IMG/VR virus record: IMGVR_UViG_3300021400_000027 | Span: 64,001 to 128,000 of that record | From: a virus | Taxonomy: Duplodnaviria > Caudoviricetes | DNA length: 64,000 bases | Direction: 5' to 3' (one strand) | In this document: positions 55,194 to 63,077 of the stretch, one piece after another | Numbering within the stretch: position 1 is the first letter of the stretch | Layout: each line of letters opens with the position of its first letter | Notes under the pieces: model-generated | Told to the model about the DNA's origin: nothing | The model's database searches: none | Seen by the model: only the letters and a program-made list of their open reading frames with translations | Program-made: the position numbers and the translations under genes

Positions 55194-55267
55194 GCGTCTG
55201 TAGCTCAGATGGTTAGAGCATCGCTCTTTTAAAGCGAGGGTCATGCGTTCAAATCGCATCAGACGCA
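55194..55267 (+). tRNA. tRNA-Lys(TTT)
   Basis: Cloverleaf; TCGCT-CTTTTAA-AGCGA. Confidence 0.9.
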
Positions 55268-55271
55268 CTAT

Positions 55272-55340
55272 GGAGATGCAGCAGGATATTTATTTATAAA
55301 TTTGAATCTGCATGAGGGTCAAATCCTTCCATCTCCACCA
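55272..55340 (+). ncRNA. D-armless tRNA-like RNA ending in ACCA
   Basis: GGAGATG/CATCTCC-ACCA acceptor, T-like arm, one central hairpin. Confidence 0.55.
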
Positions 55341-55407
55341 TTTAAAAAATTGACTTTTAATTAAAAATTGTATATAATATATATACAATTTAAAAAGAAA
55401 TTTAAAT

Positions 55408-55478
55408 TGCCCGTTCGTCTAAAGGTAGGACAGCAGTTTTTGGCACTGCTGATAGGAGTTCGATTCTCTTACGGGCAA
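55408..55478 (+). tRNA. tRNA-Gln(TTG)
   Basis: U1-A72 acceptor; GCAGT-TTTTGGC-ACTGC. Confidence 0.9.
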
Positions 55479-55486
55479 TCATAAAT

Positions 55487-55561
55487 GCAGGGAGAGCTTA
55501 TTAGGTACAAGCACTCGCCTTATAAGCGAGAGATAGTCGGGTTCAAATCCCACGCCCTGTA
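55487..55561 (+). tRNA. tRNA-Ile(TAT), imperfect stems
   Basis: CTCGC-CTTATAA-GCGAG; bulged T stem. Confidence 0.7.
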
Positions 55562-55563
55562 TA

Positions 55564-55634
55564 AAGACAGTTCAGCAACTCTTTTTAAGAACATTAGTAT
55601 TTGGGAACTGATTAGTTTAAAATGAAACTGTCTT
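55564..55634 (+). ncRNA. CAGCAA-stem RNA copy 2 (Pro-type TTTGGGA loop cargo)
   Basis: Near-duplicate of copy 1. Confidence 0.7.
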
Positions 55635-55641
55635 GTTATTT

Positions 55642-55714
55642 GCTCCCATAGCTTAGTTGGTAAAGCATCACACTTTTAATGTGAGGAGCGAGAGTTCGAG
55701 TCTCTCTGGGGGCA
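55642..55714 (+). tRNA. tRNA-Lys(TTT)
   Basis: TCACA-CTTTTAA-TGTGA. Confidence 0.9.
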
Positions 55715-55718
55715 TTAT

Positions 55719-55806
55719 GGAGATGTGGCAGAGTTGGTCGAATGCGGCACACTGCTAATGTGTTTGTCATTAAGTTGGCACGAAGGTTCGAATCCTTTCA
55801 TCTCCG
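55719..55806 (+). tRNA. tRNA-Ser(GCT)
   Basis: GCACA-CTGCTAA-TGTGT, long variable arm, G73. Confidence 0.9.
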
Positions 55807-55882
55807 TCAATTAAAAAATTGACTTTTAATTAAAAATTATGTATAATATATATACAATTTGATTTAAAAGTCAAATATAAAC

Positions 55883-55956
55883 TGCCCTGTGGACAAGTGG
55901 CTTAAGTTGGGAGTCTCTAAAACTCTAAGACCTCCGTTCGAATCGGAGCAGGGCAA
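55883..55956 (+). tRNA. Amber suppressor tRNA (CTA anticodon), Gln-type acceptor
   Basis: GGAGT-CTCTAAA-ACTCT with anticodon at 55917-55919; TGCCCTG/CAGGGCA acceptor like tRNA-Gln; own promoter at 55819-55847. Confidence 0.9.
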
Positions 55957-55963
55957 TCGAACT

Positions 55964-56018
55964 AAGACGGTTCAGCAACTCTATTTATTTGATATGTGGC
56001 TTCAAATTTCTCCGTCTT
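55964..56018 (+). ncRNA. CAGCAA-stem RNA copy 3 (His-type TGTGGC loop cargo)
   Basis: AAGACGG-TT-CAGCAA...CCGTCTT; inner TTTGA/TCAAA hairpin. Confidence 0.7.
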
Positions 56019-56116
56019 GAAAGTTCAAATCAATTAAAAATTTGAAATTTCTTTTAAAATTTGCTATAATATTTATAGTAAATGAGAAAGAAAGCCAAAT
56101 TGAAAGGAGCAAGCCT

Positions 56117-56362
56117 ATGTATATTTCAGTTCAGTTTAAGAATAAAAACAAAGAGTTTGTTGGTAAGCATTATGACTATGAATTGCTTCCTGATGAAAAA
56201 GTACCGGCAGTTGGCTCTATTATCCGAATGATGGACGAAAATTATAATTTTGTGTGTTACGGCACAAGAGTTATGGTTACTTCCGTTAAAATGAAAAGTG
56301 CTTCGGCAAAGGTCGCTATCAGATGTCTTGAAACGACACTTGATGATGAACAGGACAGTTAA
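56117..56362 (+). CDS. Hypothetical protein
   Basis: RBS AAAGGAG then ATG 56117; own promoter. Confidence 0.7.
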   Translation: MYISVQFKNKNKEFVGKHYDYELLPDEKVPAVGSIIRMMDENYNFVCYGTRVMVTSVKMKSASAKVAIRCLETTLDDEQDS

Positions 56363-56416
56363 AAATTTGAAATAAAAAATAAAATGAAGTATAATAATTA
56401 TAGAAATTAAAGAAAT

Positions 56417-56490
56417 GGGAGAGTAGCTCAGTCGGTGGTAGCAAACGGCTGTTAACCGTTAGGTCAAGGGTTCGAGTCCCTTCTCTCCCG
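56417..56490 (+). tRNA. tRNA-Asn(GTT)
   Basis: AACGG-CTGTTAA-CCGTT. Confidence 0.9.
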
Positions 56491-56500
56491 TTATTTAAAT

Positions 56501-56573
56501 GGGGTTGTAGTTCAGTTGGGAGAACGTTTGTCCTGCAAACAAAAGGTCGTGGGTTCGATTCCCACCTTCTCCA
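56501..56573 (+). tRNA. tRNA-Ala(TGC), acceptor mismatches
   Basis: G3-U70; TTTGT-CCTGCAA-ACAAA. Confidence 0.8.
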
Positions 56574-56577
56574 CTTT

Positions 56578-56654
56578 GGGAACGTAGCTTAGTTGGTAAA
56601 AGCACTCGGCTGATAACCGAGAGACCAGCGGTTCGAGTCCGCTCGTTCCCACCA
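56578..56654 (+). tRNA. tRNA-Ile(GAT)
   Basis: CTCGG-CTGATAA-CCGAG; CCA encoded. Confidence 0.92.
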
Positions 56655-56657
56655 AAT

Positions 56658-56731
56658 GCGGAATTGGTGTAATGGTAGCATTTCTGCCTTCCAAGCAGAC
56701 AGTGGGGGTTCAAATCCCCTATTCCGCTCCA
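56658..56731 (+). tRNA. tRNA-Gly(TCC)
   Basis: TCTGC-CTTCCAA-GCAGA; TCCA end. Confidence 0.92.
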
Positions 56732-56733
56732 AT

Positions 56734-56818
56734 GGGTAAGTATGCAAACTGGTGAAGCGAGCTGTCTGTAAAACAGTTGCCATTGGCGTTGTAGGTTCGA
56801 GTCCTACCTTACCCACCA
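56734..56818 (+). tRNA. tRNA-Tyr(GTA)
   Basis: GCTGT-CTGTAAA-ACAGT, variable arm, ACCA. Confidence 0.92.
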
Positions 56819-56820
56819 TT

Positions 56821-57033
56821 AAGACAGTTACAGCAACTTCACATAGAAAAGATATTTATTTAGTAAATTTAGTTTGTGGAGTTCTCCCGTGATGTGATAG
56901 GGAGAAAGAATTAAAGTTCGCACTCAACTATAAAGTGCAATAAAAATTTATTTTCGCCGTATAGGTGGCGGAGTTGTTTCGCCGCCGGCGGGTTTCCCTT
57001 GACCTTATAAGGAATTTAAATTTTAGCTGTCTT
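56821..57033 (+). ncRNA. CAGCAA-stem RNA copy 4 (~190-nt multi-hairpin cargo)
   Basis: AAGACAGTTA-CAGCAA...TAGCTGTCTT. Confidence 0.7.
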
Positions 57034-57036
57034 GCA

Positions 57037-57434
57037 TAGGTCGCCTAAATAAAGGCTTACCCTTTAAAGTTAAATTTATGCATGGTTTCAGGAAACCGAA
57101 AAATCCGAATCGAAGTTGAGCCGCCATTCAACTTCGTCCTGTGGCGGCAGGTTTTGAGGGTGGAGACCTTTTAAACTCCCGTTTGACGAACGTTATTAAA
57201 GTCTGACAGATGACATAATATTGCTCTAAATAGCCTCATCTAAGAATGGAATTTGAGCAGGTTAGAGTTTATCCTTAAAGCCAACCGGTTGAAAGTCCGT
57301 TGGACGGTAATAATCGTCCAAAGAATGGGAACTATTTGCTGACCTTCACGTGGTGTTTCTGAGTTTGGCTAACAGCAAAAAGTGATACTCGGCTTTATAG
57401 TTGAGAAAGTTATCCGAGTTAAACGCTTCTCAAC
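57037..57434 (+). ncRNA. Chain of compact pseudoknots and hairpins
   Basis: e.g. GAAGTTGA/TCAACTTC with loop GCCGCCAT pairing GTGGCGGC; ACTCGG/CCGAGT with GTTGAGAA/TTCTCAAC. Confidence 0.6.
57327..57379 (+). ncRNA. Minimal HDV-like (theta-type) self-cleaving ribozyme
   Basis: P1 GGGAAC/GTTTCT with G-U first pair, P2 TTTGCTG/CAGCAAA, P3 ACC/GGT, L3 TTCACGT, P1.1 TC/GA, J4/2 GCTAA. Confidence 0.78.
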
Positions 57435-57452
57435 AAAATTTATTAGATAGGA

Positions 57453-58037
57453 GTGATAACTTTGGTTGGAAATTGGGACATTAATGTTGTTGTAGGTAAG
57501 CTTCCGCAGAAAGTTGCTACTGCTTTTGCAAATCTTGGTGAAACAATTATTGGAGCAACATATACTCCAATTGCATATATTGGTTCACAGATTGTGAATG
57601 GAGTAAATCATGCGGTATTGGCTGAACAGACAATTATTACCGGCAGAGATACAAAGAATATCGTCTTAATTATTTTTAATGAAAAACCAGAGGGTGTTTC
57701 GTTAGTTAATATTGAGAGAGTTGTTGAAGGCGGTTTGGAACTCGGCGGAACAAAAATTGATGTAAAAACTGAAATTCCAGAAGATGCTCAGTCTGCATTC
57801 AATGAAGCAATTGGTAGCTTTGTTGGTTCTACAGTAGAACCCTTTGCATTAGTTGCAACTCAGGTTACAAAAGGTACGGACTACATCTTTGTAGCAACTG
57901 TTAAGCCTTTGGCACTTGAAGCAAAAGCAACTGTTGCTCTGGTTACGGTGAATACTCTTGAAAAGAGAATTTCCTTTATTGATGTGATTCAGCCGAATCT
58001 TAATAAAGCAAGTCTTGGATATGCTTTTACTTGGTAA
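57453..58037 (+). CDS. Hypothetical protein with internal domain duplication (start uncertain)
   Basis: Two repeats of LP..A..AF...G....P.A....Q.V.G.. Confidence 0.8.
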   Translation: MITLVGNWDINVVVGKLPQKVATAFANLGETIIGATYTPIAYIGSQIVNGVNHAVLAEQTIITGRDTKNIVLIIFNEKPEGVSLVNIERVVEGGLELGGTKIDVKTEIPEDAQSAFNEAIGSFVGSTVEPFALVATQVTKGTDYIFVATVKPLALEAKATVALVTVNTLEKRISFIDVIQPNLNKASLGYAFTW

Positions 58038-58134
58038 TAGGGAGATTAAATTCTCCCCTACCAATTAAAAATTTGAAATTTCTTTTAAAATTTGCTATAA
58101 TATTTATAGTAAATGAGAAAGAGATAAAAAAAAT

Positions 58135-58210
58135 AGCGGAGTGGAGCAGTTGGTAGCTCGCAAGATTCATTATCTTGAGGTCGTAGGTTCAAGTCCTGCC
58201 TCCGCAACCA
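58135..58210 (+). tRNA. tRNA-Met(CAT), initiator-like 1:72 mismatch
   Basis: CAAGA-TTCATTA-TCTTG; ACCA. Confidence 0.85.
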
Positions 58211-58217
58211 GCACTTA

Positions 58218-58347
58218 AAGATACGTACAGCAAACCACTTAGCTTAGGAATTTTAATCCCCGTGATGCAGGTTCGAGTCCTGTCTTTACAGTCTTTACTG
58301 TAAAGTAGCTTAATTGGCAGAGCAGGTAAATGCAAACAACGTATCTT
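58218..58347 (+). ncRNA. CAGCAA-stem RNA copy 5 enclosing circularly permuted tRNA-Lys(TTT)
   Basis: Order anticodon arm, T arm, acceptor hairpin CTTTACAG/CTGTAAAG, D arm; inside AAGATACGT/ACGTATCTT. Confidence 0.8.
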
Positions 58348-58354
58348 GTTAAAT

Positions 58355-58429
58355 GCCTCATTAGCTTAGATGGTCGAAAGCACCCGACTCTTAATCGGGG
58401 GAGCATGGGTTCAAATCCCATATGGGGTA
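58355..58429 (+). tRNA. tRNA-Lys(CTT)
   Basis: CCCGA-CTCTTAA-TCGGG. Confidence 0.9.
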
Positions 58430-58433
58430 CTAT

Positions 58434-58510
58434 GGCGGTGTAGTTCAGTAGTGTAGAACATCGGACTGTCACTCCGAAGGTCGCCGGTTCGAGTCCGGTC
58501 ATCGTCGCCA
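58434..58510 (+). tRNA. tRNA-Asp(GTC)
   Basis: TCGGA-CTGTCAC-TCCGA; GCCA. Confidence 0.92.
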
Positions 58511-58512
58511 TA

Positions 58513-58635
58513 AAGACACATCAGCAAAACAATTCTTTTGCATTGGGAGCATGAGTTAGAGGTTCGATTCCTCTATCCACGACCAAATTATACTGTGGAT
58601 TGGTGAAATGGTATCACGCATTATAAGTGTGTCTT
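58513..58635 (+). ncRNA. CAGCAA-stem RNA copy 6 enclosing circularly permuted tRNA-Pro(TGG)
   Basis: TGC-ATTGGGA-GCATG, T arm, ATCCACG-ACCA, linker, TGTGGAT, D arm; inside AAGACACA/TGTGTCTT. Confidence 0.82.
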
Positions 58636-58642
58636 GTATTTT

Positions 58643-58715
58643 GCTTCTGTAGCACAATTGGTAGTGCATCTCACTTGTAATGAGAGGGTTGTAGGTTCGA
58701 GTCCTATCAGAAGCT
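58643..58715 (+). tRNA. tRNA-Thr(TGT)
   Basis: TCTCA-CTTGTAA-TGAGA. Confidence 0.9.
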
Positions 58716-58719
58716 CTAT

Positions 58720-58793
58720 GCCGGTGTAGCTCAGTTGGTAGTAGCGTATGCCTGAAGAGCATAGCGTCAGAGGTTCGATTCCTCTCGCCGGCA
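58720..58793 (+). tRNA. tRNA-Phe(GAA)
   Basis: TATGC-CTGAAGA-GCATA. Confidence 0.9.
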
Positions 58794-58799
58794 TCAGTT

Positions 58800-58925
58800 A
58801 AGATTCGTCAGCAGAAGTATTTCAAAATTTACATACACCAAATGCCAGTATGTATGGTGTAACGGTAGCACACTCACCAGTTAAGTGAGAGGTAAAGGTT
58901 CAACTCCTTTGGCAGAACGAATCTT
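58800..58925 (+). ncRNA. CAGCAG-stem RNA copy 7 enclosing permuted tRNA-Asn(GTT)-like RNA
   Basis: TACATAC-ACCA, linker, GTATGTA, D arm, CTCAC-CAGTTAA-GTGAG, T arm; inside AAGATTCGT/ACGAATCTT. Confidence 0.8.
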
Positions 58926-58930
58926 GTTTC

Positions 58931-59002
58931 CGCCCTATCGTCTAACGGTTAGGACATCGCACTTTCTATGCGAAAATCCCAGTTCGAGTCTGGGTAGGGT
59001 GA
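58931..59002 (+). tRNA. tRNA-Glu(TTC)
   Basis: TCGCA-CTTTCTA-TGCGA. Confidence 0.88.
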
Positions 59003-59049
59003 TTAAGCGTTATTAAAACGCAAAAATAAGTAAAAGGAGAAGAGAGGTC

Positions 59050-59553
59050 ATGAATACTAAAAAATTTTATCGTGGTAATGGTCAAATCGTAACCTACGAT
59101 GGAATGATGAAAGTAATTGCAGACTACATCATGGAAGATACGAAAAGTGATTATGAAATCACAGTAGGCACAGATAGCCAAAACCATGACCTAACAAAAA
59201 TGGTTGAAGTTATCGCTGTACATCGTGTTGGAAAAGGTGGTATCTTCTTCTACAGAACAGAATATGTTCGTAAAATTCGAGTTTTAAAAGAAAAAATTGT
59301 TGAAGAAACATCTCGTTCTTTAGAGAACGCAGAGGGGTTATTAGATACAGTTCAACTTTATTTACTCGAAAAAGATATTGATATTGACAAACTCAATATT
59401 CATTTTGTAATTCATTGTGATATTGGTCATGCCGGCAAGACACAAGCACTTATTAAAGAAATTGTTTCTTGGGTTCAGTCTTGTGGTTATGAATGTCAGA
59501 TTAAGCCAGATAGCTATGCTGCGTCTGGTATTGCAAACAAAATTTCTAAGTGA
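59050..59553 (+). CDS. YkuK/DUF458 RNase H-like protein
   Basis: VGTDSQ, HR.GKGG.FF, ETSRSL, IH.DIG..G.T, IKPDSYAAS..A.K. Confidence 0.88.
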   Translation: MNTKKFYRGNGQIVTYDGMMKVIADYIMEDTKSDYEITVGTDSQNHDLTKMVEVIAVHRVGKGGIFFYRTEYVRKIRVLKEKIVEETSRSLENAEGLLDTVQLYLLEKDIDIDKLNIHFVIHCDIGHAGKTQALIKEIVSWVQSCGYECQIKPDSYAASGIANKISK

Positions 59554-59558
59554 ACAAT

Positions 59559-59662
59559 GCGTTGATAGCCAAGCATTAAAAGGCACTAAGACAATAGGAG
59601 TCCTTGTCGTGGGAACTTCACCCACATGGAATGCGTGTGATTGAAACTGCACACTCAACGCT
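59559..59662 (+). ncRNA. Aberrant tRNA-like RNA with two central hairpins
   Basis: GCGTTGA/TCAACGC acceptor, D-like arm, GACAA/TTGTC and GTGGG/CCCAC hairpins, T-like arm. Confidence 0.5.
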
Positions 59663-59665
59663 TTT

Positions 59666-59749
59666 GCCGCTGTGGTGGAATTGGCAGACACAAGGGACTT
59701 AAAATCCCTCGGAGTAAAATCCGTACCGGTTCAAATCCGGTCAGCGGCA
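59666..59749 (+). tRNA. tRNA-Leu(TAA)
   Basis: AGGGA-CTTAAAA-TCCCT, variable arm. Confidence 0.92.
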
Positions 59750-59753
59750 CTAT

Positions 59754-59813
59754 AAGACGGTTACAGCAATCTTTAAGGATTTATTTGGTTCGATTCCAGA
59801 GGTTTTCCGTCTT
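59754..59813 (+). ncRNA. CAGCAA-stem RNA copy 8 (isolated T-arm cargo)
   Basis: AAGACGG-TTA-CAGCAA...CCGTCTT; inner TTTGG-TTCGATT-CCAGA. Confidence 0.72.
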
Positions 59814-59845
59814 GAAGATTTTATTTTGAAAAGGAGATAATCTAA

Positions 59846-60460
59846 ATGAGAAAAGTTATTATTGTTATTTTATCCGTTATTGCTATTGCGACAATTGTAC
59901 TGCCTGAGGGAGAGTACGGTCCGGTAACTATTACTTCTTACGCCGCAGAGGGACAGTTTAATTCAAATGGATTACAGGCTAATAACCTTGGTATTCCTAT
60001 TAATGAATTTGTTGACGCTCCGGCAACAGCACCAATTCCTTTTGGTCAGCTTGTTGATGCTCCTATGACTGCACCAGTATCAGTTCCTTCTGATAAGTTT
60101 GTTGATGCTCCTATGACTGCACCGTCAGCGGAGACTTCTATGACTACAACTACAAAAGAAACTACAACTACAGCTGAACTTGTGTCAGCTCCAGAAACCG
60201 CACCAGAAGTTTTAGATACTGCTCCAGCGACAGCACCAACAACTACTACCTCAACCACTACTTCAACTACTACTACAGTAACAACCACCACAACTACAGC
60301 TACCACTTCGGCTTCAACCGTTTTGGCAGATATGAAGTGTGCAGATGGTGCTGAATTAAGAGTAAGTGAAGATTCAAACGGTAAGGTTGAAATTGAAGCA
60401 TCAGGCGAAAAAGACTTACTTAAAGAAATTTTTGGTTTTATTAAAGACCTGTTTTCTTAA
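59846..60460 (+). CDS. Exported Thr-rich protein with (V/L)xAPxTAP repeats
   Basis: Signal peptide, five APxTAP repeats, poly-Thr linker. Confidence 0.8.
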   Translation: MRKVIIVILSVIAIATIVLPEGEYGPVTITSYAAEGQFNSNGLQANNLGIPINEFVDAPATAPIPFGQLVDAPMTAPVSVPSDKFVDAPMTAPSAETSMTTTTKETTTTAELVSAPETAPEVLDTAPATAPTTTTSTTTSTTTTVTTTTTTATTSASTVLADMKCADGAELRVSEDSNGKVEIEASGEKDLLKEIFGFIKDLFS

Positions 60461-60479
60461 GCGGTTCGCCGCTTAATAT

Positions 60480-60553
60480 CGGGGATTACGTCAATTTGGT
60501 AGACGGCGGCATTTGGGATGCCGAGGCTGCGAGTTCGAGTCTCGCATCTCCGA
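60480..60553 (+). tRNA. tRNA-Pro(TGG)
   Basis: CGGCA-TTTGGGA-TGCCG. Confidence 0.9.
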
Positions 60554-60643
60554 CTAAAGCACCTAATGCGGATATGGTGCTATATTTTCATGGTGATTAC
60601 CTCCTAAAATTGCCAAAGTTGTGTCGCTTGGCGGCACAACGCT

Positions 60644-60722
60644 GGGGATATGGTGGAATGGCAGACACGCTTGCCTTAGAAGCAAGTGCTTCGGCGTGAG
60701 AGTTCAAGTCTCTCTATCCCCA
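60644..60722 (+). tRNA. tRNA-Leu(TAG)
   Basis: CTTGC-CTTAGAA-GCAAG. Confidence 0.9.
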
Positions 60723-60729
60723 CTAAAAT

Positions 60730-60802
60730 GGAGTCGGTAGTGTAATGGCTAACACGTCAGTTTGTGGCACTGATAATGAGAGTTCGATTCTCTCCCTTCT
60801 CC
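60730..60802 (+). tRNA. tRNA-His(GTG), acceptor mismatches
   Basis: TCAGT-TTGTGGC-ACTGA; G-1. Confidence 0.8.
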
Positions 60803-60891
60803 CTTGGTGCGCAGGTTTGATGCAATGCGACATGTTCAGAAATCCGTGTACTATAGAGTATTCCTGCACAATCTATAGCGGTATTTAATTA

Positions 60892-61036
60892 AAGACACTA
60901 CAGCAAAACATTTCTAAATGGACTGTAAATCCGTTGGGGAAGTCCCTTCGTAGGTGCAAATCCTATCCTCGCCCACCAAAATATGGGCGAGTAGCCAAGT
61001 AGACAAAGGCGACGGACCATATATTAAAAGTGTCTT
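60892..61036 (+). ncRNA. CAGCAA-stem RNA copy 9 enclosing circularly permuted tRNA-Tyr(GTA)
   Basis: ATGGA-CTGTAAA-TCCGT, V arm, T arm, CTCGCCC-ACCA, linker, GGGCGAG, D arm, ACGGAC; inside AAGACACT/AGTGTCTT. Confidence 0.82.
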
Positions 61037-61041
61037 GAAAT

Positions 61042-61122
61042 GTGGAGATGCCAGAGTGGTTGATTGGGACGGACTGCAACTCCGTTGCGTAAGCCTCGTC
61101 GGTTCGAATCCGACTCTCCACT
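61042..61122 (+). tRNA. tRNA-Cys(GCA) with enlarged variable arm
   Basis: ACGGA-CTGCAAC-TCCGT; U73. Confidence 0.85.
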
Positions 61123-61127
61123 TTAAT

Positions 61128-61201
61128 CTCCCCTTAGCTCAATTGGATAGAGCAACGGATTTCTAATCCGTAGGTTGAAGGTTCGAGTCCTTCAGGGGAG
61201 G
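61128..61201 (+). tRNA. tRNA-Arg(TCT)
   Basis: ACGGA-TTTCTAA-TCCGT. Confidence 0.9.
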
Positions 61202-61209
61202 CTTAATTT

Positions 61210-61283
61210 GTCGCTTTAGTTCAATTGGATTAGAACCTCCGGCTACGAACCGGAAGATACGAGTTCAAGTCTTGTAGGCGGCG
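61210..61283 (+). tRNA. tRNA-Arg(ACG)
   Basis: TCCGG-CTACGAA-CCGGA. Confidence 0.9.
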
Positions 61284-61287
61284 TAAA

Positions 61288-61500: not shown

Positions 61501-61607
61501 GAAGTTAAAATAATTTGAGTTTTTAAAAATTTTTTGCTATAATATTTATAGTGAAAAGGAAAAAGTCCGAATTAACTTTAACTTACAATGAAAAGGAGAA
61601 ATGTGTA

Positions 61608-63077
61608 ATGAGTTTTGTAAATCAGTTCAAAAGAATGTCCGATATGACCACCACTGAAAATGGAGGTCTGGCTTATAAGTCTACCGGCTCTGACCTTTTA
61701 TCTCTGTTCGCTAATATTGGCGGTATGAGAGATAGAAATGATAGCGATATTATTTCTGCTTGGAAACTCGCAAGAAAGGAAGATAAGCTGTTAGCAGATA
61801 ACCTTATTCTCTATTCTCGTGATATTCGTAATGCCGGACTTGGTGAGCGTAGAATTGGCAGACTCTTATTAAAAGAGCTTGCTATGGTTGACCCTCGTAA
61901 GGTAGAGCGTAATCTCCAGAAGATTGTCGATGCCGGCAGATGGGACGACTTGTTCGTATTTGAGGGAACTCCTGCATGGGATGAAACCGTTCGCTTTATC
62001 CAGAATCAGTTCCGTACTGATGTCAATGGAATGAAGAAGAACGAACCTATTTCTCTGCTTGCAAAGTGGCTTCCTTCTATTAACGCTTCTTCTGAAAAGA
62101 CTAAGCGTCTGGCTCGTACTTTCTGCACCTTGTTCAGCTTAACTCCTCGTACTTATCGTAAGAGCCTCTCCGCTATGCGTAAGTACATTGATGTAGTTGA
62201 ACGTAAGATGTCAGCTGGTCAGTGGAATGAAATTAACTTTGAAACTGTTCCTTCTGTTGCAATGTCTCGTTATATTGCAACCTACAATAAGCGTTGTCAG
62301 GAACGCTTTGCCGAATACAAGGCTTCCCTTGAAAAGGGCGAAGCTAAGGTTAATGCGGCAACTCTCTTCCCTTATGACATTGCTTTAAAGTTCATAGGCA
62401 ATTGTAATGGCTATGGTTGTAGATATACTCATCTGGATGCAGTTGATGAAGCACAGTGGAAGGCTCTGCCTAACTATGTTTCTGACGAGTTCGATGTAGT
62501 TGTAATGGCAGACGTATCCGGCTCTATGTACTCTTCTGATAGTCGTCCTATGGCAACTTCTATTGGTCTGGCAACTTACTTTGCTCAACGCAACAAAGGT
62601 GCATATCACAATATGTATTTAAGTTTCACTGACCGTCCTCATTTCATTACCCTGCGTGACGAGATGTCGCTGGAAGATTGCTTAAAATACGTGTTAAAGG
62701 AGGGTGTTGGCTACAATACTGACCTTGACCTTGCTTTTGAAGCTATCTATAAAGTGGCAAGCACTGCCGGAGAAGCACCTAAAGCTCTTGTCATTATTAG
62801 TGATATGGAGATTGATTCTTTCTGCGGAGAGAATTATGAATCCATTGCTCAAAAATGGCAGAGAATTTACGCTAAAGCTGGATTAACTGCTCCTAAGTTA
62901 ATTTGGTGGAATGTAGATTCCAGAGAGGGTAGAGTTCTCGCTCGTCAGGACGAGAATGTAGGATTTGTATCAGGTTATGGTGTCGGTCCGTTCAAGAATC
63001 TTCAATCTCTGATTGAAAAAGACGCTTATACCGCAATGGTAGAAATCCTCTCTCAGGACGCTTTCACTTGGAATTAA
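61608..63077 (+). CDS. DUF2828 / TROVE(Ro60)-like protein with C-terminal vWA domain
   Basis: TENG..AY.ST, RDIR..GLGER, GRWDDL, SLLAKWLPS, MIDAS DVSGSM, ISDME.D, WNV; ATG 61608 behind AAGGAG. Confidence 0.88.
   Translation: MSFVNQFKRMSDMTTTENGGLAYKSTGSDLLSLFANIGGMRDRNDSDIISAWKLARKEDKLLADNLILYSRDIRNAGLGERRIGRLLLKELAMVDPRKVERNLQKIVDAGRWDDLFVFEGTPAWDETVRFIQNQFRTDVNGMKKNEPISLLAKWLPSINASSEKTKRLARTFCTLFSLTPRTYRKSLSAMRKYIDVVERKMSAGQWNEINFETVPSVAMSRYIATYNKRCQERFAEYKASLEKGEAKVNAATLFPYDIALKFIGNCNGYGCRYTHLDAVDEAQWKALPNYVSDEFDVVVMADVSGSMYSSDSRPMATSIGLATYFAQRNKGAYHNMYLSFTDRPHFITLRDEMSLEDCLKYVLKEGVGYNTDLDLAFEAIYKVASTAGEAPKALVIISDMEIDSFCGENYESIAQKWQRIYAKAGLTAPKLIWWNVDSREGRVLARQDENVGFVSGYGVGPFKNLQSLIEKDAYTAMVEILSQDAFTWN

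What the first reader, a model, noticed from the sequence alone, without database searches (positions are those of the whole stretch)
57037..57434. Tandem chain of dissimilar compact H-type pseudoknots
Seen: ~400 nt without an ORF containing GGTTT/AAACC with GGA/TCC (57084-57107), GAAGTTGA/TCAACTTC with GCCGCCAT/GTGGCGGC (57112-57148), GAGG/CCTT with GGAG/CTCC (57156-57179), and ACTCGG/CCGAGT with GTTGAGAA/TTCTCAAC (57387-57434), plus a CGGTTGAAAGTCCG hairpin. Known: type III antitoxins (ToxI, CptI) are small pseudoknots and phage phiTE uses pseudo-ToxI repeats to escape ToxIN. Inference: a panel of antitoxin-like decoys, or a new large ncRNA.
Basis: partly seen in the sequence, partly recalled or inferred. 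Interest (0 to 1): 0.7.

Follow-up and report, generated by a model that had tools for sequence, protein, structure and literature searches.

The report
Ribozyme-trimmed stable phage RNA, tRNA island
The stretch is not a chain of antitoxin-like knots: it holds the body of an abundant, structured non-coding RNA of a rumen T4-like phage, a small self-cleaving ribozyme that probably cuts that RNA's 3' end, and the leader of the next gene; the RNA belongs to no known family and its function is unknown.

Summary
Window 57037-57434 lies in a 24-tRNA island of a 180-kb T4-like rumen phage and has no ORF under any code. It contains three things.

(1) 57034/57037-57326 is a structured RNA of about 290 nt. 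Six of its pairings keep base pairing, most through changes on both sides, in the only diverged relative found (L001) and in strain variants.

(2) 57327-57379 is an HDV-like "theta" ribozyme. It shares its core with tRNA-adjacent ribozymes at 33 IMG/VR loci.

(3) 57380-57461 is the leader of a tandem cystatin-fold gene.

Contigs from three metatranscriptomes of three studies cover 56833-57314, stop, and restart at 57349-57359. A DNA contig runs straight through. The gap brackets the predicted cleavage site.

Of the four proposed pseudoknots:
- one is real (57111-57151; it covaries, and is better read as two adjacent hairpins with complementary loops);
- two are at chance level and are not conserved;
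- one lies in the downstream mRNA leader and is untested.

The ToxI-like decoy reading fails: there are no tandem repeats in the window and no Rfam match. The "new ncRNA" reading holds, with different borders.

Function is unknown. The closest analogues are the T4 RNAC/RNAD stable RNAs and ROOL/GOLLD. Other readers of this scan noted this same stretch and the ribozyme in this genome; nothing was noted on other DNA.

The parts
56821..57036 (+). Upstream 'handle'-type module. Its closing stem is AAGACAG 56821-27 with CTGTCTT 57027-33, followed by ACAGCAA. It is context, and possibly the 5' domain of the same mature RNA.
Evidence: Stem complementarity is. RNA contigs of X3, X4 and X5 run through the 57036/57037 junction without a break.
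57034..57326 (+). Body of the structured non-coding RNA, about 290 nt. It corresponds to L001:2539-2836, which lies between tRNA-Lys and tRNA-Gly.
   Evidence: Models R1 and R2 hit only the window, L077 and L001. RNA contigs end at 57299-57314. No ORF. No Rfam hit.
57034..57081 (+). P1 (57034-41 with 57074-81). It encloses hairpin H1 (57043-46 with 57053-56) and motif copy 1, CTTACCCTTTAAAG (57056-69).
   Evidence: L001 P1 is CATAGT/ACTGTG, all canonical. H1 is GCCT/AGGC in the window and AGTC/GACT in L001, so 4 of 4 pairs changed on both sides. L077 has C57081T, which turns G-C into G-U.
57084..57097 (+). Hairpin H3, GGTTT-CAGG-AAACC.
   Evidence: G85-C96 becomes C-G in L001. The loop is GAAG in L001, so the proposed GGA/TCC pairing is not kept.
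57099..57112 (+). Conserved segment AAAATCCGAATCGA, identical in the window, L077, X8, X5 and L001. It is probably single-stranded. The A-run before it varies in length.
   Evidence: No complementary partner was found inside the RNA.
57111..57151 (+). Hairpin HA (57111-19 with 57128-36), a 1-nt linker (57137), and hairpin HB (57138-41 with 57148-51). The loops are complementary: CCGCCA 57121-26 with TGGCGG 57142-47.
   Evidence: 5 of 9 HA pairs changed on both sides in L001. X8 carries G57118A together with C57129T. The loop pair C122-G146 becomes T-A in L001. The HB closing pair is replaced in L001. Loop-loop duplex energy is -16.4 kcal/mol.
57160..57207 (+). Variable segment deleted in the natural variant L077.
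   Evidence: deletion; MFE pairing 57150-75 with 57258-83. T57272C in X8 and L077 turns G160-U272 into G-C.
57260..57285 (+). A 26-nt unit carrying motif copy 2 (TTTATCCTTAAAG). It is present once here and tandemly duplicated in L077 and in DNA run X8.
57300..57321 (+). Terminal hairpin TTGGACG-GTAATAAT-CGTCCAA, 5 nt before the cleavage site.
   Evidence: L001 has an analogous hairpin at 2815-2833, 2-3 nt before tRNA-Gly. Most ribozymes of this family that are not behind a tRNA are preceded by such a hairpin.
57327..57379 (+). HDV-like (theta-type) self-cleaving ribozyme with predicted cleavage 5' of G57327. Elements: P1 57327-32 with 57355-60; P2 57335-41 with 57373-79; P3 57342-44 with 57352-54; L3 TTCACGT; P1.1 57346-47 with 57361-62; J4/2 CTAA with the candidate catalytic C at 57369.
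   Evidence: It is the only full descriptor hit with C in the 180-kb genome. The homologue L121:727-778 has covarying P1, P2 and P1.1. The core is shared with 33 IMG/VR loci, of which at least 14 sit exactly at tRNA 3' ends. The RNA contig gap 57303-57348 occurs in three studies. T57358C turns G-U into G-C in P1.
57380..57461 (+). Leader of the downstream gene. It holds the candidate pseudoknot 57387-57434 (ACTCGG/CCGAGT with GTTGAGAA/TTCTCAAC), the word AAGTTATC 57407-14 complementary to GATAACTT 57455-62 across the start region, and the Shine-Dalgarno GGAG at 57450-53.
   Evidence: RNA contigs starting at 57349-57359 run into the ORF.
57462..58037 (+). ORF of 191 aa with a TTG start, predicted to have a tandem cystatin-like fold. 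It often sits directly behind a tRNA in related phages.

Best explanation
The finding region is a composite of three elements on one tRNA-operon transcript of a T4-like rumen phage.

(a) 57034/57037-57326 is a stable structured non-coding RNA.
- Its 5' border is the 3' end of the preceding tRNA-like or handle module. In L001 the same border is the 3' end of tRNA-Lys.
- Its 3' end is made by the self-cleaving HDV-like ribozyme that starts at G57327. In L001, RNase P cutting at the next tRNA-Gly does the same job.
- A terminal hairpin is left at the 3' end.
- Its conserved 5' domain has helix P1, hairpins H1 and H3, an invariant single-stranded AUCCGAAU word, and two adjacent hairpins whose 6-nt loops are mutually complementary.
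- Its 3' half is variable. It carries a repeated UUACCCUU(U)AAAG word and tolerates a 48-nt deletion and a 26-nt duplication.

(b) The ribozyme stays at the 5' end of the downstream mRNA.

(c) That mRNA's leader has a possible pseudoknot of its own.

Shown: non-coding status, presence in RNA libraries, the break at the ribozyme, conservation of the helices, and family membership of the ribozyme.

Inferred: the exact ends; that the RNA stays joined to the upstream handle module (contigs are continuous there), giving a species of about 506 nt; and its role.

The most likely role is as a stable scaffold or decoy RNA. It would act in trans through its conserved single-stranded word, its repeated motifs and its loop pair, by binding a phage or host protein or by self-association. 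It is unlikely to be a cis regulator.
For: - Non-coding under three codes.
- GC is raised to tRNA-like levels.
- No Rfam family at E<=10.
- Contigs of metatranscriptomes from three studies cover 56833-57302, 56855-57299 and 56735-57314. All restart at 57349-57359 with 2-4 times lower contig depth, while DNA contig X8 is continuous.
- The ribozyme descriptor hits the genome once, at 57327.
- The ribozyme homologue L121 covaries in P1, P2 and P1.1, and the core is shared with tRNA-adjacent ribozymes.
- The pair table shows compensatory changes in H1, H3, HA, HB and the loop pairing, and retained pairing in P1. G57118A with C57129T in X8 is an independent compensatory event.
- The L001 counterpart is bounded by two tRNAs and has nearly the same length, 298 nt against about 290.
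- The RNA part differs less from X8 than the adjoining ORF does.
Against: - Only two diverged lineages plus strain variants were found, so covariation rests on few independent events and no statistical test such as R-scape was possible.
- The RNA evidence is from assembled contigs. These cannot give true ends, strand or level, and DNA carry-over in RNA libraries cannot be excluded. The tool itself rates coincident contig stops as a weak hint.
- The window ribozyme does not reach any Rfam HDV model at E<=10. Decoy versions of my descriptor hit the genome 5 times, so the descriptor alone is not significant.
- L077 lacks the 3' strand of one helix I first proposed (57057-63 with 57157-63), so part of the fold is unsettled.
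- Nothing here bears directly on function.
Confidence: 0.7

Rival explanations
1. A panel of type III antitoxin-like pseudoknots (ToxI, CptI or AntiQ mimics) that act as decoys against host ToxN/AbiQ-type toxins.
For: One compact pseudoknot-like pairing is real and conserved. A 26-nt unit varies in copy number between strains, which distantly recalls the repeat expansion of pseudo-ToxI in phage phiTE (my own knowledge, not checked here).
Against: There is no tandem repeat in the window, and the unit duplicated in variants is 26 nt, not about 34-45 nt. There is no Rfam match of any kind at E<=10. Pseudoknots 1 and 3 are at chance level and not conserved. Pseudoknot 4 lies on another RNA. The elements share no sequence with each other.
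Confidence: 0.03
2. A passive spacer. The stretch would be only processing scaffolding between the tRNA array and the next gene (hairpins that guide RNases, plus the ribozyme). It would be stable because it is structured, with no function of its own.
For: In about half of 40 related phages the cystatin-like gene follows a tRNA directly, with only 24-174 nt between, so the RNA is dispensable for that gene. The RNA was found in only two lineages. Its 3' half tolerates a large deletion and a duplication.
Against: A 14-nt word is invariant, and six pairings are kept by compensatory change between lineages whose neighbouring protein is only 79% identical and whose other intergenic sequence is unalignable. 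The length is kept (about 290 against 298 nt). Contig depth is higher than that of the adjoining mRNA in three runs (a weak measure).
Confidence: 0.15
3. A cis-acting leader, such as a riboswitch or attenuator, that controls the downstream 191-aa gene.
For: It lies directly upstream on the same strand. The hairpin GCCGCCA...TGGCGGC followed by GGTTTTG looks a little like a terminator. The leader proper has alternative pairings around the start site.
Against: RNA contigs break between the RNA and the gene, at a ribozyme. In L001 a tRNA separates them. There is no riboswitch match in Rfam. RNA contigs read through the terminator-like hairpins.
Confidence: 0.05
4. Cargo of a Ro60/Y-RNA-like particle. 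The 290-nt body would stay covalently attached to the upstream handle module (56821-57036), which docks onto the phage Ro60-like protein (61551-63077). The whole would be a 506-nt Y-RNA-like molecule with a very large appendage. This overlaps the best explanation rather than excluding it.
For: RNA contigs are continuous across 57036/57037 in all three runs, whereas two of them break at the tRNA-Tyr/handle junction. The handle stem is present. A DUF2828/TROVE-like protein is encoded 4 kb downstream.
Against: In L001 the same RNA body follows a tRNA, not a handle. Contigs can bridge through unprocessed precursors. There is no YrlA match in 56700-57600 even at E<=10. Binding of the handles to Ro60 is itself only inferred, by earlier notes.
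Confidence: 0.3
5. A minimal RNase P-like RNA. GAAAGTCCG at 57291 resembles conserved region I of RNase P RNA, and ACTCGGCTTTAT at 57387 resembles region V; together they could form helix P4.
For: The 9-mer and its partner are present and complementary with the usual bulged U. The resemblance to RNase P is from my own memory of the E. coli M1 sequence.
Against: No RNase P model (bacterial A or B, archaeal, or type T) matches at E<=10. The two strands lie on opposite sides of the RNA break and the ribozyme. L001 lacks both words.
Confidence: 0.01

Closest known systems
T4 'species 1' and 'species 2' stable RNAs (RNAC/rnaC, RNAD/rnaD)
   Same: They are small stable non-coding RNAs encoded inside the tRNA cluster of a T4-type phage, on the tRNA strand, directly abutting a tRNA. 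They are annotated as stable RNAs and are still of unknown function (PMC9697503).
   Different: The T4 RNAs are 139 and 119 nt, against about 290 nt (or 506 nt) here. There is no sequence or structure match (R1 gives nothing on the T4 region). T4 has no ribozyme at their ends.
ROOL and GOLLD large ornate RNAs
   Same: They are phage-associated, lie next to tRNAs, include rumen-derived members, are non-coding and have unknown function. They carry covarying loop-loop pairings; cryo-EM showed some pairings first read as tertiary contacts to be intermolecular bridges (PMC12286853).
   Different: There is no match to the Rfam ROOL or GOLLD models even at E<=10. This RNA is shorter and has far fewer known members. 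Oligomerisation was not tested here.
Theta ribozymes (minimal HDV-like ribozymes of gut phages; PMC10879173)
   Same: The 57327-57379 element has the nested double pseudoknot, a reduced P4, and C as the first base of J4/2. It shares the core ACC-TYCACGT-GGT...CTAA with ribozymes that sit exactly at tRNA 3' ends in other phages.
   Different: Here, as in L121, L155 and L176, it follows a long non-coding RNA that ends in a hairpin, not a tRNA. It would therefore mature an ncRNA 3' end and an mRNA 5' end. The window copy is below every Rfam HDV threshold.
ToxI and other type III antitoxin RNAs, including pseudo-ToxI of phage phiTE
   Same: They are small pseudoknotted RNAs used in phage-host conflict. 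One compact pseudoknot-like pairing exists here.
   Different: There is no tandem repeat array, no toxin partner, no sequence similarity and no repeated unit of antitoxin size.

Membership tests
Type III antitoxin RNA (ToxI, CptI, AntiQ, or a pseudo-ToxI decoy) | Tandem direct repeats of roughly 34-45 nt | tested here: not met
   TRF finds no array in 56800-57480. Variants have 2.2 copies of a 26-nt unit.
Type III antitoxin RNA (ToxI, CptI, AntiQ, or a pseudo-ToxI decoy) | Sequence or structure similarity to a known antitoxin repeat | tested here: not met
   No Rfam family of any kind matches at E<=10 in 56700-57600.
Type III antitoxin RNA (ToxI, CptI, AntiQ, or a pseudo-ToxI decoy) | Processing by, and neutralisation of, a ToxN/AbiQ-type endoribonuclease | not testable with these tools
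   Needs a rescue assay.
HDV-like / theta ribozyme (for 57327-57379 only) | Nested double pseudoknot P1, P2, P3 and P1.1, with G at +1 | tested here: met
   Full descriptor match. P1, P2 and P1.1 covary in L121. T57358C gives G-C in P1.
HDV-like / theta ribozyme (for 57327-57379 only) | Cytosine at the first position of J4/2 | tested here: met
   C57369 in CTAA. The same CTAA is present in nearly all hits of the core scan. The criterion comes from PMC10879173.
HDV-like / theta ribozyme (for 57327-57379 only) | Score above a curated Rfam HDV-type model threshold | tested here: not met
   No hit at E<=10 in the window. The homologue L121 scores 22.5 bits against a gathering score of 44 for RF02682.
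HDV-like / theta ribozyme (for 57327-57379 only) | Self-cleavage at the 5' edge of P1 | tested here: inconclusive
   RNA contigs of three studies leave a gap at 57303-57348 around the site, while DNA is continuous. Contigs cannot show ends, so an in vitro assay is needed.
HDV-like / theta ribozyme (for 57327-57379 only) | Position within a few nt of a tRNA 3' end (the feature that names theta ribozymes) | tested here: not met
   The nearest upstream tRNA ends at 56818. Relatives with the same core do sit at tRNA ends.
ROOL / GOLLD | Match to the family covariance model | tested here: not met
   No hit at the gathering score or at E<=10.
ROOL / GOLLD | Phage or prophage context next to tRNAs | tested here: met
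   24 tRNAs on the same strand in 55194-61284. The phage is T4-like.
ROOL / GOLLD | Homo-oligomeric assembly | not testable with these tools
   There is only the indirect argument from the loop-loop pairing of adjacent hairpins.
RNase P RNA | Conserved regions I and V forming P4 within one RNA, and a match to a family model | tested here: not met
   No model hit. The two strands are separated by the RNA break.
T4 RNAC/RNAD-type stable RNAs | Encoded in, and processed from, the phage tRNA cluster | tested here: met
   (context only).
T4 RNAC/RNAD-type stable RNAs | Sequence or structure homology to rnaC or rnaD | tested here: not met
   R1 finds nothing in T4 68000-76000.
YrlA / Y RNA | Match to RF02553, or a Ro-binding stem formed by the RNA's own two ends | tested here: not met
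   No YrlA hit in 56700-57600 at E<=10. The ends of 57034-57326 do not pair with each other. The upstream handle module was not evaluated here.

The most novel reading that the evidence does not exclude
The RNA may be a new, smaller relative in kind of ROOL, GOLLD and OLE: a self-associating phage RNA.

The covarying 6-bp pairing joins the loops of two hairpins separated by a single nucleotide, and in L001 both 6-nt loops are fully consumed by it. A fully stacked kissing complex would put the two stem bases about 19 bp apart, which such a linker cannot span. This is inference from helix geometry, not a test. The pairing is therefore most simply formed between molecules (loop A of one with loop B of another), giving closed dimers or rings.

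The theta ribozyme and the terminal hairpin would then serve to release a precisely ended, exonuclease-resistant building block from the tRNA transcript.
Probability: 0.15. Interest if true: 0.8.

Novelty: new variant of a known kind. Interest (0 to 1): 0.5.

Why it matters
Phage tRNA islands are known to carry stable RNAs of unknown role, from T4 RNAC/RNAD to ROOL and GOLLD. This adds a further, unrelated RNA with a defined conserved core and evidence of expression in the rumen.

It also shows a maturation scheme not described for such RNAs. A terminal hairpin followed by a theta-type HDV-like ribozyme sets the 3' end of the ncRNA and the 5' end of the next mRNA at once. The same cassette lies behind other ORF-free stretches and behind ORFs in related phages. 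Theta ribozymes may therefore be general RNA-end makers in these phages, not only tRNA trimmers.

The intra- versus intermolecular question for the loop pairing can be tested directly with two compensatory mutants.

Tried and rejected
- **Recoding.** The island has a CTA suppressor tRNA, but no frame opens under TAG=Q or table 4.
- **Known RNA families.** Rfam gives only tRNAs at the gathering score and nothing credible at E<=10. ARAGORN finds no tmRNA.
- **RNase P-like core** (GAAAGTCCG with CGGCTTTAT). Rejected; see the rival explanations.
- **blastn searches.** Nothing against 50,697 phage records, and only short chance matches in five relatives' genomes.
- **Paralogues.** There are none in the phage's own genome.
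- **Pattern scans for the conserved 14-mer plus loop.**
  - IMG/VR gave only the L001 contig as a true hit; three other hits were one unrelated coding sequence.
  - JGI and other metagenomes gave 84 stretches, of which only L077 and the L001 contig are real.
- **Covariance models.** R1 and R2 found nothing in 8 whole related phage records, 36 loci holding the neighbouring gene, 33 ribozyme loci or the T4 tRNA region.
- **Alignments with L001.** MAFFT and single-sequence CM alignments of L001 were structurally inconsistent, so pairs were counted on a hand-set register.
- **Kissing-hairpin descriptor.** It hits by chance about once per 15-30 kb, so it is useless for discovery.
- **Closing helix 57057-63 with 57157-63.** I proposed it from L001. 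It loses its 3' strand in L077 and crosses P1, so it is left open.
- **Targets for the AUCCGAAU word.** The two 10-mer complements in the genome are the antisense of the 3' ends of two minus-strand genes, so they are not transcribed targets.
- **Promoter or terminator as the cause of the RNA break.** There is no sigma-70-like site near 57320-57350, and the 57300-57321 hairpin lacks a U-tract.
The closest relatives of the neighbouring protein (P0001-P0004, 80-97% identity, in ENA and Logan) could not be fetched.
- **Depth values of contigs** were not used to rank expression beyond a weak remark.
Full report
**Context.** The window is bases 64001-128000 of a 179,787-bp viral record with direct terminal repeats. 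It encodes both topoisomerase II subunits, NrdD, a fibritin-like protein and a polynucleotide kinase-like protein, so it is a T4-like myovirus. Sequencing runs that hold the stretch are labelled gut or bovine gut metagenomes.

Positions 55194-61284 carry 24 tRNA genes, all on the + strand, including a CTA suppressor. The finding lies between tRNA-Tyr (56734-56818) and an ORF whose likely start is TTG 57462, behind GGAG 57450-53. The 630 nt between them have no ORF under table 11, TAG=Q or table 4. Their GC content (0.42-0.43) is nearer to that of the tRNAs than to that of the coding flanks.

**The observation.**
- In 200 dinucleotide shuffles, pseudoknot-like pairs as small as nos. 1 and 3 are as frequent as observed, whereas the 6+8 bp class is about seven times rarer than observed.
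- TRF finds no repeats.
- Rfam finds nothing except tRNAs, even at E<=10 with permissive filters.

**Relatives.**
- The neighbouring 191-aa protein led to five IMG/VR loci. Only L001 (79% protein identity) has recognisable similarity upstream.
- A pattern built from the shared 14-mer and loop found only L001 again in IMG/VR.
- In the metagenome collection, among 84 mostly chance hits, it found one further true relative, L077. This is a strain-level variant that includes the same tRNAs.
- A covariance model from the window alone (R1) scores L077 at 133 bits and L001 at 30 bits (E about 1e-4). It finds nothing in eight whole related phage records, 36 further loci with the neighbouring gene, 33 ribozyme loci or the T4 tRNA region.
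- The RNA is therefore confined, as far as these models can see, to two lineages.

**Transcription and borders.** Six metatranscriptome runs hold the stretch. Contigs of three of them, from three studies, were laid on 56400-58100 together with one DNA run.

| Run | Kind | First contig | Next contig starts |
|---|---|---|---|
| X3 | RNA | 56833-57302 | 57349 |
| X4 | RNA | 56855-57299 | 57357 |
| X5 | RNA | 56735-57314 | 57359 |
| X8 | DNA | 56888-58100 (continuous) | no break |

- In each RNA run the second contig runs into the ORF at 2-4 times lower contig depth.
- The tool rates coincident stops in RNA runs where DNA goes on as a weak hint. Here three studies agree within 15 nt.
- The tRNAs upstream are nearly uncovered in the RNA runs, which argues against simple DNA carry-over.
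- X3 and X4 also break at the tRNA-Tyr 3' end. None of the three breaks at 57036/57037.

**The break is a ribozyme.** An earlier first-stage note had proposed an HDV-like ribozyme at 57327-57379. I tested it as follows.
- A descriptor requiring P1, P2, P3, P1.1 and C-N-R-A in J4/2 hits the 180-kb genome, both strands, exactly once, at 57327. Decoys with A, G or T in place of the catalytic C hit 3, 0 and 2 loci. The descriptor alone is therefore not significant, but its coincidence with the 46-nt RNA gap is.
- The same descriptor found L121:727-778 in a related phage. P3, L3 (TYCACGT) and J4/2 (CTAA) are identical there, and P1, P2 and P1.1 are all different but complementary. Rfam gives L121 a sub-threshold match to RF02682.
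- A scan of IMG/VR for the shared core returned 33 loci. At least 14 place the first ribozyme base on the last base or two of a tRNA (Met, Ser, Thr, and a CTA suppressor). That is the arrangement that defines theta ribozymes (PMC10879173).
- T57358C in L077 and X8 turns a G-U of P1 into G-C.
- The copies not behind a tRNA, including the window's, are mostly preceded within 0-5 nt by a stable hairpin. The upstream DNA is either ORF-free (window, L121, L155, L176) or the end of an ORF.

I conclude that 57327-57379 is a member of this ribozyme family. Its cleavage most likely makes the 3' end of the upstream RNA, leaving hairpin 57300-57321 plus 5 nt, and the 5' end of the downstream mRNA.

**The RNA body.** In L001 the homologous RNA fills the 298 nt between tRNA-Lys and tRNA-Gly, and it also ends in a hairpin 2-3 nt before the tRNA. 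Two different end-making devices thus frame an RNA of the same length.

On a hand-set register, checked by script, the following pairings are canonical in the window, L077 and L001:

| Element | Window positions | Change seen |
|---|---|---|
| P1 | 57034-41 with 57074-81 | Two one-sided changes in L001; G-C to G-U in L077 |
| H1 | 57043-46 with 57053-56 | All four pairs changed on both sides in L001 |
| H3 | 57084-88 with 57093-97 | One double change in L001 |
| HA | 57111-19 with 57128-36 | Five double changes in L001; an independent double change, G57118A with C57129T, in X8 |
| HB | 57138-41 with 57148-51 | Closing pair replaced in L001 |
| Loop-loop | 57121-26 with 57142-47 | One double change in L001 |

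The word AAAATCCGAATCGA (57099-57112) is identical in all versions, while the A-run before it varies in length.

The 3' half is not alignable between lineages.
- Within the window lineage it shows a 48-nt deletion (57160-57207, L077) and a 26-nt tandem duplication (after 57259, in L077 and X8).
- A word TTACCCTT(T)AAAG occurs at 57056 and 57268, and three times in L077.
- Both copies can pair with the G-rich word at 57152-65. T57272C strengthens the pairing with the second copy.

**The four pseudoknots.**
- No. 2 is real, but the downstream strand of its second stem is itself the loop of a conserved hairpin (HB). The motif is therefore two adjacent hairpins with complementary loops.
This is inference from helix geometry.
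  - Either HB opens to give a strained H-type pseudoknot, or the pairing is between molecules. The second was found for loop pairings of ROOL and GOLLD that covariation had first assigned as tertiary contacts (PMC12286853).
- No. 1 is only a hairpin.
- No. 3 is chance.
- No. 4 lies in the mRNA leader. Its paired positions are unchanged in all variants, so it remains a prediction (p about 0.04 by shuffling).

**Other readings.** ToxI-like decoys, a cis leader, an RNase P-like core and a passive spacer are weighed in the rival explanations. The Ro60/Y-RNA link is left open. The contigs suggest that the body stays joined to the upstream handle module (56821-57036), giving a species of about 506 nt, but L001 shows that the body does not need a handle.

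**Verdict.**
- The decoy interpretation is not supported.
- The 'new ncRNA' interpretation is supported, with revised borders.
- The RNA belongs to no curated family. Its nearest analogues are the T4 stable RNAs of the tRNA cluster and the ornate phage RNAs.
- Its function is unknown. I favour a trans-acting scaffold or decoy role, with self-association as the most novel possibility that is not excluded.

Noticed in passing
window 56923-56935 and 57393-57405: There is a perfect 13-nt complementarity (duplex -19.2 kcal/mol) between the loop region of a hairpin in the upstream handle module and the leader of the 191-aa gene. It overlaps the 5' strand of the leader's own GTTGAGAA/TTCTCAAC stem. 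About 0.003 such matches are expected by chance in this 630-nt stretch. Both sides are unchanged in L077 and X8. It could be a trans pairing of the abundant RNA with the mRNA leader.
   Followed up: partly
window 57407-57414 and 57455-57462: AAGTTATC in the leader is the exact complement of GATAACTT, which spans the gap between the Shine-Dalgarno sequence and the first base of the TTG start. This pairing is an alternative to the proposed leader pseudoknot, which would hold AGTTAT in a loop. It may be an on/off arrangement for translation.
   Followed up: no
window 57462-58037: The 191-aa ORF has no Pfam or PHROG match but folds confidently (pLDDT 85) into two tandem cystatin-like domains, each with a QxVxG-like word. 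The best PDB matches are phytocystatin, fetuin-B, multicystatin and latexin. There are 575 homologues in metagenomes. In about half of 40 related phage loci the gene sits 24-174 nt behind a tRNA.
   Followed up: partly
L121:1-1141 (IMGVR_UViG_3300021400_000244): A different ORF-poor stretch follows a perfect TTGACA-N17-TATAAT promoter (about 91-118). It ends in a hairpin plus a homologous theta-type ribozyme at 727-778, and a further 360 non-coding nt reach the first tRNA. There is no Rfam match. It is probably another unknown large phage RNA matured in the same way. A sub-threshold YrlA match lies at L121:1959-2075.
   Followed up: partly
L156, L158, L163, L166, L167 (IMG/VR loci): In these phages the same ribozyme family sits about 27 nt behind an ORF, right after a GC-rich hairpin. 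It seems to trim mRNA 3' ends as well as tRNAs and ncRNAs.
   Followed up: no
window 57160-57207 and 57260-57285: Natural structural polymorphism occurs within one phage population. There is a 48-nt deletion (L077) and a 26-nt tandem duplication (L077 and DNA run X8) in the 3' half of the RNA, while the 5' domain stays nearly invariant.
   Followed up: yes
window 55883-55956: There is a tRNA with a CTA anticodon (amber suppressor; ARAGORN labels it Pyl) in the island. Reading TAG as sense opens no frame in the region studied.
   Followed up: partly
window 56952-56992: Two terminator-like hairpins on the + strand lie inside the handle module, and RNA contigs read through them. In L077 several substitutions fall in and around the first one (T56954C, C56958T, G56959A, A56961G, G56971A). 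I did not work out whether they compensate each other.
   Followed up: no
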